A model generated the notes under the pieces. That model was not told the DNA's origin, made no database searches, and saw only the letters and a program-made list of their open reading frames with translations. The position numbers were made by a program, and so were the translations under genes. A DNA stretch of 39,110 nucleotides, taken from assembly GCA_036491155.1 (NCBI GenBank), contig DASXCN010000197.1:1-39110 (forward strand). Reading direction: 5' to 3'. Of the stretch, positions 21,415 to 24,649 are shown piece after piece; positions within the stretch are counted from its first letter, which is position 1, and every line of letters starts with the position of its first letter. The stretch comes from Solirubrobacteraceae bacterium (lineage in GTDB: Bacteria; Actinomycetota; Thermoleophilia; Solirubrobacterales; Solirubrobacteraceae).

Positions 21415-21444
21415 TCGAAACCTTGACACATCCGTGGTAAGGTT
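21415..21444 (+). promoter_or_regulatory. Promoter (TCGAAA-N17-TAAGGT, extended -10 TG) overlapped by a 26-bp inverted repeat operator
   Basis: aaccttgacac-atcc-gtggtaaggtt (21419-21444) has 9/11 arm symmetry. It lies directly upstream of the MerR GTG at 21454. Confidence 0.65.
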
Positions 21445-21453
21445 GGGCCCACG

Positions 21454-21813
21454 GTGCAGTCTCTGACCATCAACGAAGCCGCCGCGACGACCGGTTGGTC
21501 GCCGCGCATGCTTCGTTACGTCGAGCAGACGGGCCTGGTGGCGCCCAATCGGTCGCCTGCCGGATACCGGCTGTACGGCGCCGCCGAGCTGCAGCGCCTG
21601 CGCACGCTCAAGGAACTGCTGGGGCAGTTCGACGTGTCGCTGTCAGACGTCGCGTTCGCGCAGCGGCTGGCCGGTGACCGCGACCTGCGCGAGTCGGTGC
21701 AGGCCTGGCTGAGCGCGCAGGCACGGCGGCCGGAGAACGTCCACTCCGAGGAGTGGCTGCGCTTCGAGCAGGAGAAGCACGAGCGCCTGCTCGCTGCGGC
21801 GGCCGCGGCGTAG
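21454..21813 (+). CDS. Short MerR-family transcriptional regulator (119 aa, no Cys, no effector domain)
   Basis: [38 protein letters not shown] is the MerR HTH and wing. Confidence 0.9.
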
Positions 21814-21886
21814 ACATCGGCCGCCCCCGCAGGCGGCGACTCACACCTTGAACCACATAACGAGCAACGAGCCTGGAGAGACAAGC

Positions 21887-23338
21887 ATGAGCACCACCGC
21901 CCAGAAGGTCGACTACAAGGTCGCGGACCTGTCGCTGGCCGAGTTCGGCCGCAAGGAGATCACGCTCGCCGAGCACGAGATGCCCGGCCTGATGGCGACC
22001 CGCCGCGAGTTCGCCGACAGCCAGCCGCTCAAGGGCGCCAAGATCACGGGCTCGCTGCACATGACGATCCAGACCGCGGTGCTGATCGAGACGCTCGCCG
22101 CCCTGGGCGCCGAGGTGCGCTGGGCGAGCTGCAACATCTTCTCCACCCAGGATCACGCCGCCGCGGCGATCGTCGTCGGCCCCGATGGCACGCCCGAGGA
22201 CCCGCGCGGCGTCCCGGTCTTCGCCTGGAAGGGCGAGACGCTCGAGGAGTACTGGTGGTGCACCGGGCAGGCGCTCACTTGGCCGGAGGGCGACGGCCCG
22301 AACATGATCCTCGACGACGGCGGCGACGCCACCCTGCTCGTCCATAACGGCGCCCAGTACGAGGCCGCCGGCGAGGTCCCCAGCCCGTCGACCGCCGAGA
22401 ACGAGGAGCACCGGGTCATCCTCGAGCTCCTCACGCGCTCGCTGGCCGATGACCCGCAGCGCTTCACGCGCATGGCCGAGAGCATCAAGGGCGTCACCGA
22501 GGAGACGACCACCGGCGTGCACCGCCTCTACCAGTTCGCCAAGGAGGGCCGGCTGCTCTTCCCGGCCATCAACGTCAACGACGCGGTCACCAAGTCCAAG
22601 TTCGACAACAAGTACGGCTGCCGTCACTCGCTGATCGACGGCATCAACCGTGCCACCGACGTGCTCATCGGCGGCAAGGTCGCACTGGTGTGCGGCTACG
22701 GCGACGTCGGCAAGGGCTGCGCTGAGTCGCTGCGCGGACAGGGCGCCCGGGTGATCGTCACCGAAGTCGACCCCATCTGCGCGCTGCAGGCGGCGATGGA
22801 CGGTTACCAGGTGGCCCGGCTCGACGACGTCATCGGCGAGGTCGACATCTTCGTCACCGCCACCGGCAACAAGGACGTAATCACCGCCCAGCACATGGCG
22901 CAGATGAAGCACCAGGCGATCGTCGGCAACATCGGCCACTTCGACAACGAGATCGACATGGCCGGCCTGGAGAAGACCGACGGCATCAAGCGCATCAACA
23001 TCAAGCCCCAGGTCGACGAGTGGGTCTTCAAGGGTGGGAACGCGATCATCGTCCTCTCCGAGGGCCGGCTGCTGAACCTCGGCAACGCCACCGGGCACCC
23101 GAGCTTCGTGATGTCCAACTCCTTCACCAACCAGGTGATGGCCCAGATCGAGCTCTTCGGCAACACCGGCGAGTACGAGACCCAGGTCTACACCCTGTCC
23201 AAGCAACTCGACGAGAAGGTCGCCCGGCTGCACCTCGACGCCCTGGGCGTGCGGCTGACCGAGCTGTCCTCCGAGCAGGCCTCGTACCTGGGCGTGCCCG
23301 TGGAGGGCCCCTACAAGTCTGACCACTACCGCTACTAG
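21887..23338 (+). CDS. ahcY: Adenosylhomocysteinase (SAH hydrolase), long type with insertion, catalytically intact
   Basis: [59 protein letters not shown] and C-terminal [13 protein letters not shown] 21887 follows a GGAGAG SD. Confidence 0.97.
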
Positions 23339-23368
23339 GGGACATCACCAACGGGGGCCGGTACGGGG

Positions 23369-24649
23369 ATGGCGCGCGCCGCGCTTGGACCGCACGACGT
23401 CGCTGACCTGACGCTGGCCCCCGAGGGTGAGCTGAGGATCGACTGGGCGGCCGGGCAGATGGCCGTGCTCGCCCAGATCCGGACGCGGTTTGCCGCCGAG
23501 CGGCCCCTGGAGGGCATCCGCGTGGCGGCGTGCCTGCACGTCACCGCGGAGACGGCCAACCTCGTCCGCACGCTGAGCGCGGGCGGCGCCACGGTGGCGC
23601 TGTGCTCGGCCAACCCGCTCTCGGCCCAGGACGACGTCGCCGCGGCGCTCGTCGTGGCGGACGGGGTGGAGGTCCGGGCGCGGCGCGGTGAGGACCTCGA
23701 CACCTATGTCGAGCACGTCCTGGCCCTGCTGGGTCCCTCTGACGGTCCCGGTCCGCAGATCACCCTCGATGACGGTGCCGACCTGCTCGCCACCGCGCAC
23801 GCCCGCGGGGGAGCGGTCCTGGACGGGCTGATCGGCGGCACCGAGGAGACCACCACCGGCCTGGTGCGCCTGCGCCGGCTCCAGGAGGAGGGGACGCTGC
23901 GCTGCCCCGTGCTGGCCGTCAACGAGGCCCGGACCGAGCGGGCGCTCAACGATCGCCACGGCACCGGTCAGTCGGCGCTGGACGGGATCGTGCGCGCGTC
24001 CAACGTGCTGTTGGCGGGCAACACCATTGTCGTCGTCGGCTACGGCTGGGCCGGTCTCGGGGTGGCTGAGCGGGCCCGCGGGGCGGGGGCCGCGGTCATC
24101 GTCTGCGAGATCGACCCGCTGCGCGCACTCGAGGCGCGGATGGCGGGCTACGAGGTCATGCCGGCACTCGAGGCCGCCGAGCGCGGCGACATCTTCATCA
24201 CCGTCAGCGGCTCGCGCCGGGTTCTGCGCGGCGAGCATTTCGAGCGCATGAAGGACGGCGCCCTGCTGGCCAACGCCGGTCACTTCGACGTCGAGGTTGA
24301 CCTGGGGGAGCTCTCGGCGCTGGCCACCGGCGGGCACCGTGCCGTGCGGCCGCTGGTGGAGGAATACCGCCTGGCGGACGGACGGCGGATCAACCTGCTG
24401 GCTCATGGCCGCGTTGTCAACCTGGCCGCCGCCGAGGGCCATCCGGCGGCGGTGATGGATGTCTCCTTCGCCCTGCAAGCGCTGAGCGTCGAGCAGCTCG
24501 TCGTCGACCGGGGCCGGCTGGCGCCGGGCGTGCACGCGGTGTCAGCCGACGTGGACCGCGAGGTGGGGCGGCTCAAGCTCGCGTCGCTCGGGGTCCGCAT
24601 CGACCAGCCGACCCCCGAGCAGCAGGACTACCGCCAGTCCTGGACGTGA
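23369..24649 (+). CDS. Adenosylhomocysteinase paralog (short type) with substituted catalytic residues
   Basis: CLHVTAETA, NPLSAQD, DDGAD, EETTTG, GYGWAG, GHFD and GHP are retained. VNEARTERALNDRHG replaces VND..TK..FDN.YG. ORF is intact at 426 aa. Confidence 0.9.
   Translation: MARAALGPHDVADLTLAPEGELRIDWAAGQMAVLAQIRTRFAAERPLEGIRVAACLHVTAETANLVRTLSAGGATVALCSANPLSAQDDVAAALVVADGVEVRARRGEDLDTYVEHVLALLGPSDGPGPQITLDDGADLLATAHARGGAVLDGLIGGTEETTTGLVRLRRLQEEGTLRCPVLAVNEARTERALNDRHGTGQSALDGIVRASNVLLAGNTIVVVGYGWAGLGVAERARGAGAAVIVCEIDPLRALEARMAGYEVMPALEAAERGDIFITVSGSRRVLRGEHFERMKDGALLANAGHFDVEVDLGELSALATGGHRAVRPLVEEYRLADGRRINLLAHGRVVNLAAAEGHPAAVMDVSFALQALSVEQLVVDRGRLAPGVHAVSADVDREVGRLKLASLGVRIDQPTPEQQDYRQSWT

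What the first reader, a model, noticed from the sequence alone, without database searches (positions are those of the whole stretch)
21415..24649. MerR + AhcY + apparently catalytically dead AhcY: candidate enzyme-coupled SAH/methylation-status sensor (GlnR/TnrA-like logic)
Seen: a palindromic operator over the promoter, then a 119-aa MerR protein with no Cys and no effector domain. It ends in a short, probably helical tail ([15 protein letters not shown]). An intact ahcY and a second full-length ahcY with altered catalytic residues follow. No SAH riboswitch is recognisable upstream of ahcY. Known: Bacillus GlnR and TnrA are similarly short MerR proteins that sense nitrogen by binding feedback-inhibited glutamine synthetase via C-terminal tails, and glnR is encoded next to glnA. 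Characterised ahcY control uses SAH riboswitches or SahR (ArsR family). Inference: this MerR may read SAH, adenosine or NAD(H) status by binding AhcY or the pseudo-AhcY. I do not know of such a circuit being described.
Basis: partly seen in the sequence, partly recalled or inferred. Interest (0 to 1): 0.85.

Follow-up and report, generated by a model that had tools for sequence, protein, structure and literature searches.

The report
Pseudo-enzyme partner for methionine-cycle repressor
In soil actinobacteria a small DNA-binding protein has a matching DNA palindrome in front of its own operon and two methionine-recycling genes, and in every genome examined it is kept together with a copy of the SAH-clearing enzyme that here has lost key catalytic residues, so the protein is likely a repressor and the likely dead enzyme is likely its sensor.

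Summary
The palindrome is AACCTTGACAC-N4-GTGTCAAGGTT. It occurs three times in this genome: before merR-ahcY1-ahcY2, metF and metH. In relatives, 62 of 62 examined sites precede these genes, and 0 of 217 genomes lacking this merR have a site. AhcY2 is not a duplicate of AhcY1 but a short, cyanobacterial-type AhcY with K186E/D190N/N191D and an invariant adenine pocket. All 84 merR genomes keep the short type. Where the long-type AhcY1 makes it catalytically redundant, it is kept in 42 of 42 genomes with merR and 1 of 55 without, also where unlinked. Its catalytic residues erode by different routes in several lineages, only where a second enzyme exists. One merR-less genome has an SAH riboswitch instead. 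Best reading: an ancestral MerR plus AhcY trigger-enzyme circuit whose enzyme became a dedicated SAH sensor. Repression, direct contact and the ligand are inferred. It works like GlnR/TnrA with glutamine synthetase but is not a member. Nothing like it appeared in five literature searches.

The parts
21419..21444 (.). Palindromic operator (2 mismatches to AACCTTGACAC-N4-GTGTCAAGGTT); its right arm holds a predicted extended -10 element (TG-n-TAAGGT, hexamer 21438-21443) of a likely leaderless merR transcript
   Evidence: Sequence; 3 sites in the genome; present before merR in 80 of 80 loci; the TANNNT frame stays while its middle bases vary in relatives. The promoter role is inferred.
21454..21813 (+). 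Short MerR-family regulator, 119 aa, no Cys, conserved C-terminal helix (W101, E105, Q106, K108, H109, L112)
   Evidence: Pfam and NCBIfam; alignments A1 and A3; AlphaFold2 and Foldseek
21887..23338 (+). ahcY1: intact long (insertion-bearing) S-adenosylhomocysteine hydrolase, the predicted working enzyme
   Evidence: TIGR00936 641.7 bits, cut-off 497.6; catalytic motifs intact
23369..24649 (+). ahcY2: short, cyanobacterial-type AhcY with K186E/D190N/N191D; predicted pseudo-enzyme and sensor partner of the MerR
   Evidence: Best solved relative 7o5l; residue table; co-retention with merR

Best explanation
The MerR protein likely represses merR-ahcY1-ahcY2, metF and metH through the shared palindrome, and the likely dead AhcY2 likely acts as its SAH sensor by contacting the conserved C-terminal helix. 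Shown: the palindrome, its place before these three transcription units, its restriction to merR genomes, the catalytic substitutions, the intact adenine pocket, and the co-retention of merR with the short-type AhcY. Inferred step 1 (about 0.9): the MerR binds the palindrome. Inferred step 2 (about 0.8): binding represses, because the site covers the predicted -10 element at merR and the -35 region at metF and metH. Inferred step 3 (about 0.85): AhcY2 binds SAH or adenosine but cannot oxidise the ribose 3'-OH, so it holds ligand in a stable closed state. Inferred step 4 (about 0.65): AhcY2 binds the MerR tail in a ligand-dependent way, so that rising SAH lifts repression and induces SAH hydrolysis and homocysteine remethylation. 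I lean about 55:45 to SAH-loaded AhcY2 pulling the repressor off DNA (TnrA-like) over ligand-free AhcY2 acting as co-repressor (GlnR-like). Inferred history: the ancestral unit was merR plus one active short-type AhcY that was both enzyme and sensor; once a second AhcY took over catalysis, the partner copy lost catalytic residues in several lineages.
For: Regulon: 3 sites in the own genome, before merR, metF (TIGR00676 above cut-off) and metH (TIGR02082, 996 bits, just under the 1011 cut-off, full length). 62 of 62 examined sites lie before merR (6), metF (26) or metH (30). In 301 class genomes, 41 have a site, all 41 among the 84 with this merR, 0 of 217 without. Gene order merR-ahcY1-ahcY2 in 73 of 80 loci; the other 7 end at a contig edge. 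Coupling: 84 of 84 merR genomes have a short-type AhcY. Among 97 genomes with the long type, the short type is present in 42 of 42 with merR and 1 of 55 without (four weak f4 hits were the long gene itself; five double absences rechecked at loose thresholds). The one exception, G086, has a relic of the merR 3' end before its short-type gene (read by eye). Within family f7, where the two genes are unlinked and no operator was seen at the short-type loci fetched, the split is 16 of 16 against 0 of 23. On an AhcY1 tree, 6 independent pairs on well-supported branches go the same way and none the opposite way, sign test p about 0.03 (86 rows). Partner identity: in f9 merR lies directly before an intact short-type gene in 20 of 20 loci and 0 of 41 merR genomes have the long type. 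Distant merR homologues outside the class (f19) also precede a short-type gene in 5 of 6 loci, three with a recognisable operator. Erosion: K186 is lost in 41 of 41 f1+f3 copies (39 E, 2 A) and 2 of 5 f5 copies; E156, N181 or N191 is changed in 6 of 13 f7 copies; 0 of 73 other short-type copies have such a change. In f19, 3 of 3 translated merR-linked copies carry E156V while 3 of 3 unlinked second copies are intact. H55, T57, E59, D131, H301, F302, L347, H353, M358, F362, the GxGxxG motif and E243 are invariant in the 41 f1+f3 copies. Lys186 is the acid/base at the 3'-oxygen and Asp190 binds the 2'-OH (PMC4647836, passages); K186N is used as a catalytically dead mutant (PMC7744083, passages). 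Signal: SahR regulons have the same core of ahcY, metH and metF (PMC4239095, passages), and merR-less G250 has an SAH riboswitch before ahcY1 (RF01057, 48.5 bits, gathering 37). Fold: the model fits the GlnR DNA-binding domain (7tea, rmsd 3.0 over 75 columns) and departs from full-length metal-sensing MerRs (rmsd 11-17).
Against: All support is comparative genomics, and co-retention cannot separate direct from indirect coupling. A search for residues shared by merR-partnered short-type AhcYs and absent from unpartnered ones found only 2 weak positions. Human E156A is described as non-ligand-binding (PMC12848013, passages), which sits badly with ligand sensing by the f7 and f19 copies that changed E156; the window's copy keeps E156. 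K186 and D190 also contact the ribose, so the triple change may weaken binding. Three f7 merR genomes (G251, G270, G329) have a frameshifted short-type gene; this is either assembly error or merR without a working partner. The short type is intact in 7 of 13 f7 and 3 of 5 f5 copies and in G619, where it could simply be a second enzyme. The SAH riboswitch appears in only 1 of 50 merR-less loci scanned. The independent-pairs test has only 6 pairs, on a single-gene tree. The predicted -10 element sits at offsets of about -7, +1 to +4 or +13 to +15 from the operator end (counted by eye); this helical phasing may point to polymerase contact rather than plain occlusion.
Confidence: 0.62

Rival explanations
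1. The MerR senses a small molecule itself (SAH, homocysteine or SAM) through its C-terminal helices. AhcY2 is a non-catalytic SAH or adenosine buffer, or an inhibitor of AhcY1, useful only in cells with this regulatory regime, and never touches the MerR.
For: Invariant aromatic and polar residues (F68, W85, W101, E105, Q106, H109) could form a small pocket. No partner-specific surface signature was found on AhcY2. Dead AHCY-like proteins have been proposed to act on AHCY in animals, with weak evidence (PMC12955632, passages).
Against: It does not explain why an unlinked short-type gene without an operator is lost together with merR in f7 (16 of 16 against 0 of 23), nor why merR was never found without the short type (84 of 84). 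AhcY1 and AhcY2 are only 36% identical, which makes mixed oligomers less likely.
Confidence: 0.15
2. AhcY2 is an active enzyme with altered chemistry or substrate (for example an inosine or other nucleoside thioether), with Glu186 replacing Lys as the base; it is simply a regulon member.
For: The E/N/D triple is fixed in 39 of 41 f1+f3 copies and looks like a coordinated swap. The NAD motif and the rest of the site are invariant. It passes the curated AhcY cut-offs.
Against: Other lineages reach A, Q or T at 186 and D, G, A, S or V at 156, which looks like loss by many routes and not one new chemistry. The erosion occurs only with merR plus a second enzyme. It gives no reason for co-loss of an unlinked gene with merR.
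Confidence: 0.1
3. The sensing partnership is as proposed, but the MerR activates metF and metH (by promoter distortion or polymerase contact) while repressing its own operon.
For: The TTGACA or TTGCCA inside the operator lies 17-20 bp from the predicted -10 in 44 of 56 metF/metH sites, and one helical turn further in 11 of 56 (counted by eye). MerR activators use long spacers (recalled).
Against: The spacing varies and the dyad centre lies nearer the -35 than in MerR activators (recalled geometry). The predicted fold lacks the long dimer helix of twisting activators. ahcY, metF and metH are co-regulated with one sign in SahR regulons.
Confidence: 0.08
4. The MerR reads the active long-type enzyme AhcY1, its immediate neighbour; AhcY2 is incidental.
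For: merR lies directly before the long-type gene in f1, f3, f5, f7 and G619.
Against: 0 of 41 f9 merR genomes have the long type, and the four f19 genomes searched show only short-type matches plus one divergent hit. 55 genomes have the long type without merR.
Confidence: 0.05

Closest known systems
GlnR / TnrA with feedback-inhibited glutamine synthetase (low-GC Gram-positive bacteria; PMC9249791, passages read; PMC4335299, search listing only)
   Same: Short MerR winged-helix protein without an effector domain; a conserved C-terminal tail on a linker; encoded in an autoregulated operon with the enzyme; the enzyme is the inferred sensor.
   Different: Different subfamily (TnrA model 23 bits against a cut-off of 140), operator, tail motif, enzyme and pathway. 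Here the partner has become a pseudo-enzyme beside a separate working enzyme; GlnR and TnrA use active glutamine synthetase.
SahR (ArsR family) and SAH riboswitch regulons (PMC4239095, passages read)
   Same: Same target genes: ahcY, metH, metF and the regulator itself. An SAH riboswitch stands before ahcY1 in one merR-less relative.
   Different: These are one-component sensors that bind SAH directly. The SahR core also includes metK, which was not found under this operator. The regulator here is MerR family.
AHCYL1/IRBIT and AHCYL2, and the AHCY-adenosine-FTO complex (PMC12955632 and PMC12848013, passages read)
   Same: An AHCY fold used without catalysis; ligand-dependent binding of a partner protein has been shown for human AHCY.
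   Different: Eukaryotic, with an N-terminal IRBIT domain in AHCYL1/2, and not acting on a DNA-binding repressor of the methionine cycle. AhcY2 has no extra domain and arose separately from a bacterial short-type AhcY.
Bacterial trigger enzymes such as CysK with CymR and RocG/GudB with GltC (recalled; no call tested these)
   Same: A metabolic enzyme reports its ligand state to a transcription factor.
   Different: Those enzymes stay active. No AhcY example appeared in the literature searches.
Synechocystis SAH hydrolase (PDB 7o5l)
   Same: Closest solved relative of AhcY2 (E 3e-140, whole length, no 40-residue insertion, same C-terminal ending).
   Different: 7o5l keeps K186, D190 and N191.

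Membership tests
MerR superfamily | N-terminal winged helix-turn-helix (PF13411/PF00376) | tested here: met
   49.2 and 42.1 bits, above cut-offs; Foldseek matches
Classical metal/drug-sensing MerR activators (MerR, CueR, ZntR, SoxR, BmrR) | Long antiparallel dimer helix plus Cys or effector domain | tested here: not met
   No Cys; short helices 63-74 and 76-87; rmsd 11-17 to full-length CueR, CadR, SoxR; all subfamily models far under cut-off
Classical metal/drug-sensing MerR activators (MerR, CueR, ZntR, SoxR, BmrR) | Operator centred in a fixed 19-20 bp spacer (recalled) | tested here: inconclusive
   Spacing 17-20 bp in 44 of 56 sites, shifted a turn in 11, -10 inside the operator at merR and 1 metF site (by eye); transcription starts were not mapped
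GlnR/TnrA | Sequence membership | tested here: not met
   TnrA model NF053740 23.3 bits against 140; phmmer matches to GlnR and TnrA cover only the helix-turn-helix
GlnR/TnrA | Partner glutamine synthetase and tail motif XG(E/D)XSRF (PMC9249791) | tested here: not met
   The neighbour is ahcY and the tail is W-x-x-(F/W/H)-EQ-x-KH-x-x-LL
GlnR/TnrA | Architecture: winged helix, short helices, linker, conserved C-terminal tail | tested here: met
   Predicted model; rmsd 3.0 over 75 columns to GlnR 7tea
GlnR/TnrA | Tail binds the enzyme in a ligand-dependent way and switches DNA binding | not testable with these tools
   Needs a bench assay
Active AhcY (SAH hydrolase), for AhcY2 | Family profile score | tested here: met
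   TIGR00936 523.1 against 497.6; NF004005 531 against 275, so pipelines would annotate it as an active enzyme
Active AhcY (SAH hydrolase), for AhcY2 | Catalytic K186, D190, N191 | tested here: not met
   E, N, D in the window and in 39 of 41 f1+f3 copies
Active AhcY (SAH hydrolase), for AhcY2 | Adenine/homocysteine pocket and NAD motif | tested here: met
   Invariant in 41 of 41 at H55, T57, E59, D131, H301, F302, L347, H353, M358, F362, G220/G222/G225, E243; ligand binding itself was not measured
SahR | ArsR-family regulator | tested here: not met
   Only MerR families hit
SahR | Core regulon ahcY, metH, metF, metK | tested here: inconclusive
   ahcY, metH and metF met. No site at metK: none of 62 sites, and none in the short stretch before the contig end upstream of the own metK
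AHCYL1/IRBIT | N-terminal IRBIT extension on an animal-type AHCY | tested here: not met
   426 aa, aligned over its whole length to 7o5l

The most novel reading that the evidence does not exclude
An undescribed two-protein methylation sensor of Actinomycetota. A MerR repressor reads SAH through SAH hydrolase itself, and the enzyme partner has been turned into a dedicated pseudo-enzyme receptor several times independently (K186E/D190N/N191D in f1 and f3, E156V in f19, other changes in f5 and f7) whenever a second hydrolase took over catalysis. Living genomes keep every stage, from moonlighting enzyme to pure sensor. The regulon seems to reach metF and metH only in the lineages where the sensor is fully dead.
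Probability: 0.55. Interest if true: 0.9.

Novelty: new variant of a known kind. Interest (0 to 1): 0.82.

Why it matters
It would be a new way for bacteria to sense methylation status, in an abundant and little-studied soil lineage, and a bacterial counterpart to the dead AHCY-like proteins of animals. It offers a natural series for a long-standing question, how pseudo-enzymes arise from moonlighting enzymes: sole active partner (f9), redundant but intact (part of f7, f5), eroding (f7, f5, f19), fixed dead (f1, f3). All parts are small soluble proteins and a 26-bp site, so the test is direct. It also flags a mis-annotation: AhcY2 passes the curated cut-offs for an active hydrolase. A non-turning SAH binder could also serve as a biosensor scaffold.

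Tried and rejected
Complex prediction of two AhcY2 copies (residues 6-426) with MerR 60-117, using paired 70-row alignments: no verdict. Scores were 0.34, 0.38, 0.33 against controls 0.23, 0.00, 0.00, and the margin was under the mark; it is used neither for nor against binding. Search for a MerR-binding surface signature on short-type AhcY (44 eroded and 34 intact copies from merR genomes against 54 from merR-less genomes): uninformative. Rfam over the finding and over 10 merR loci: no riboswitch. dN/dS and a weight-matrix scan of the own genome did not run because the script machine was lost, so purifying selection on ahcY2 rests on intact frames and 65-91% identity across 31 relatives, and weak operator sites were screened only by mismatch count. 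RNA evidence: 24 runs held at most 0.15 of the words and none was laid on the region, so expression and co-transcription are untested. [quoted passage not shown] Rejected: AhcY2 as a decaying pseudogene (same substitutions fixed across two families, pocket invariant); AhcY2 as a duplicate of AhcY1 (36% identity, different subfamily); the 'copper efflux regulator' label on homologues (no Cys); a sequencing artefact (same triple in 68 of 68 readable copies among 73 loci, 5 unreadable); metK as a regulon member. Rows dropped: G329 and G322 (frameshifted short-type genes) from alignments A3/A4 and from the residue table; G251 and G270 failed the length filter. Earlier-findings look-ups by place, sequence and one word set were empty.
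Full report
Observation. The window holds, on the + strand after a bifunctional phosphoglucose/phosphomannose isomerase gene, a palindrome at 21419-21444, a 119-aa MerR gene (21454-21813), an intact ahcY (ATG 21887-23338) and a second ahcY (23369-24649). 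The MerR has no Cys, matches only the MerR helix-turn-helix and reaches no subfamily cut-off. Rfam finds no riboswitch. The second AhcY aligns over its whole length to the Synechocystis enzyme 7o5l but reads TERALNDRH where 7o5l reads TKHFYDNRY, i.e. K186E, D190N, N191D. It is 36% identical to AhcY1 and lacks its insertion, so the two are different subfamilies, here called long and short type. Close homologues of the MerR are labelled Solirubrobacteraceae or Solirubrobacterales. Families are otherwise known only by code; f1 is the window's family.

The operator defines a regulon. In the 4.15-Mb own genome (80% complete) the pattern AACCTTGACAC-N4-GTGTCAAGGTT has three sites with up to 5 mismatches: before merR, before metF on C210 and before metH on C662. 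Among 61 relatives, 40 have sites, most f1 genomes exactly three, and the reversed control none. I fetched 62 of these sites; all 62 precede merR (6), metF (26) or metH (30). Two of the 62, and the tallies, include the unpublished genomes G025 and G030; no conclusion depends on them, and they are not in the class draw. In an even draw of 301 class genomes, 84 have this MerR and 41 have a site at up to 3 mismatches; all 41 are among the 84. In f9, f7 and f5 the single site found is the one at merR; several sites per genome were seen only in f1 and f3. The three-gene order holds in 73 of 80 further loci, the other 7 ending at contig edges, with the operator in 80 of 80 (these loci may overlap the G genomes). 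No site was found at metK.

Sign of control (inferred). At merR the right arm departs from the perfect palindrome so as to form TG-n-TANNNT, about 10 bases before the start codon; the middle bases vary between genomes while the frame stays. At metF and metH a TANNNT lies 1-4 bases after the operator in 44 of 56 sites, 13-15 bases after it in 11, and inside it in 1 (counted by eye). The operator therefore covers the predicted -10 or -35 region of likely leaderless transcripts, which favours repression. The 10-11 bp phasing between the three geometries is unexplained and keeps an activator reading alive. The predicted structure has a winged helix, two short helices, a linker and a tail helix at 98-118; it fits the GlnR DNA-binding domain at rmsd 3.0 over 75 columns and does not fit the long dimer helix of CueR, CadR or SoxR. 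The tail residues W101, E105, Q106, K108, H109 and L112 are invariant in 32 order-level sequences; E105, Q106, K108, H109, L112 and L113 are at least 90% conserved in 70 class-level ones.

Which AhcY goes with the MerR. All 84 merR genomes have a short-type AhcY. In f9, merR lies directly before an intact short-type gene in 20 of 20 loci, and none of its 41 merR genomes has the long type. In a phylum draw of 401 genomes, 7 matches lay outside the class. The six in f19 are distant full-length homologues (profile match probability 99.3); five precede a short-type gene and one ends at a contig edge. The seventh, G619, has merR-ahcY1 and an unlinked intact short type. The sharpest test uses the 97 genomes that have the long type, where the short type is not needed for catalysis: it is present in 42 of 42 with merR and 1 of 55 without. 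The exception, G086, has a relic of the merR 3' end before the gene (by eye). In f7 the short-type gene is unlinked and showed no operator in the loci fetched, yet the split is 16 of 16 against 0 of 23. Five double absences held at loose thresholds. On a tree of 86 AhcY1 proteins the state changes at least 13 times; 6 independent pairs on well-supported branches all go the same way, p about 0.03. These are draft genomes, so absences mean 'not found in those searched'.

Is AhcY2 dead. Lys186 donates and accepts the proton at the ribose 3'-oxygen and Asp190 binds the 2'-OH (PMC4647836, passages); K186N serves as a dead mutant (PMC7744083, passages). In 41 of 41 f1 and f3 copies K186 is gone (39 E, 2 A), while the adenine pocket, the gate residues and the NAD motif are invariant. 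Erosion by other routes appears in 2 of 5 f5 copies (K186Q with N191T; K186T), in 6 of 13 f7 copies (E156D, G or A; N181A; N191D) and in two f1 genera that lack the E/N/D triple. In f19, 3 of 3 translated merR-linked copies have E156V and a changed N346 loop, while 3 of 3 unlinked second copies are intact. None of 73 other short-type copies (54 from merR-less genomes, 19 from f9) has a change at E156, T157, N181, K186, D190 or N191. So catalytic residues become dispensable only where merR and a second hydrolase are both present, while the gene itself is kept. Against a simple sensor reading: human E156A is described as non-ligand-binding (PMC12848013, passages), half of the f7 and f5 copies are still intact, three f7 copies are frameshifted, and no partner-specific surface signature emerged.

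Signal. The regulon matches the core of SAH-responsive SahR regulons, minus metK (PMC4239095, passages). One merR-less f1 genome, G250, has a canonical SAH riboswitch before ahcY1; it is the only one in 50 merR-less loci scanned, so this is modest support. SAH is the most likely signal; adenosine or NAD(H) state are not excluded.

Mechanism proposed. The MerR represses the three units. AhcY2 binds SAH without turning it over and, through the MerR tail helix, converts its ligand state into relief of repression, which raises SAH hydrolysis and homocysteine remethylation. In GlnR the tail binds the active site of feedback-inhibited glutamine synthetase and switches DNA binding on, and in TnrA the same contact switches it off (PMC9249791, passages). 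I lean slightly to the TnrA-like mode, because a repressor left without its releasing partner would lock off metH and ahcY, and merR was never found without the short type. Overall confidence 0.62; the regulon alone about 0.9.

Comparison and novelty. It works like GlnR/TnrA with glutamine synthetase and like other trigger enzymes (recalled), and it has the targets of SahR, but it fails sequence, tail-motif and partner tests for GlnR/TnrA and the family test for SahR. Dead AHCY-like proteins are known in animals (PMC12955632, passages). Five full-text searches of the open library gave no listed paper on a MerR regulator of ahcY or a bacterial pseudo-AhcY sensor: MerR/ahcY/SAH/regulon (20 of 64 listed), inactive SAH hydrolase in bacteria (20 of 30), pseudoenzyme/SAH/sensor (2 of 2), Thermoleophilia/methionine/regulon/MerR (15 of 607) and trigger enzyme/SAH hydrolase (10 of 48). 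I saw only search listings for those, read no supplements, and subscription journals and regulon databases are not covered. Two earlier scan notes describe a different ahcY regulator and a eukaryotic dead AHCY; neither was tested here. Verdict: a real, conserved and apparently undescribed regulon, with good comparative evidence for an enzyme-to-pseudo-enzyme sensor. New variant of a known kind, interest 0.82.

Noticed in passing
L263:1382-1454 (G250:C31): Canonical SAH riboswitch (RF01057) before ahcY1 in an f1 genome that lacks merR, the operator and the short-type AhcY.
   Followed up: yes
L235 (G086:C3), about 60 bases before the short-type ahcY: Relic of the merR 3' end (tail codons and stop) left after an apparent deletion; this genome also has a long-type ahcY elsewhere.
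   Followed up: partly
Operator sites in L092-L153: The predicted -10 hexamer sits at about -7, +1 to +4 or +13 to +15 from the operator end, steps of one helical turn; unexplained for a plain repressor.
   Followed up: partly
L197-L201, L208-L209, L224-L226 (f7): The unlinked short-type ahcY directly follows a gene whose C-terminus resembles, by eye, the phosphoglucose/phosphomannose isomerase that precedes merR in the window; this may be the ancestral position of the short-type gene.
   Followed up: no
L207 (G111:C79) and G486:C276:22580-23593: A third, far more divergent AhcY-like gene (34% identity for G111) in two merR genomes.
   Followed up: no
L087 (G055:C5): Second copy of operator-merR-ahcY1 with the ahcY1 broken after about residue 250.
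   Followed up: no
window 21820-21838: Short G+C-rich inverted repeat between merR and ahcY1; no Rfam match.
   Followed up: no
G000:C689:1392-2591 and G000:C218:1-666: Two metK matches in the own genome, one partial; no operator in the short stretch available upstream of the complete one.
   Followed up: partly
window 2494-2670: Another, unrelated MerR-type helix-turn-helix (41% over 59 residues to the finding's MerR).
   Followed up: no
window 25798-29304: Two tandem, similar-looking ORFs of 567 and 594 aa with signal-peptide-like starts and shared repeats; function not examined.
   Followed up: no
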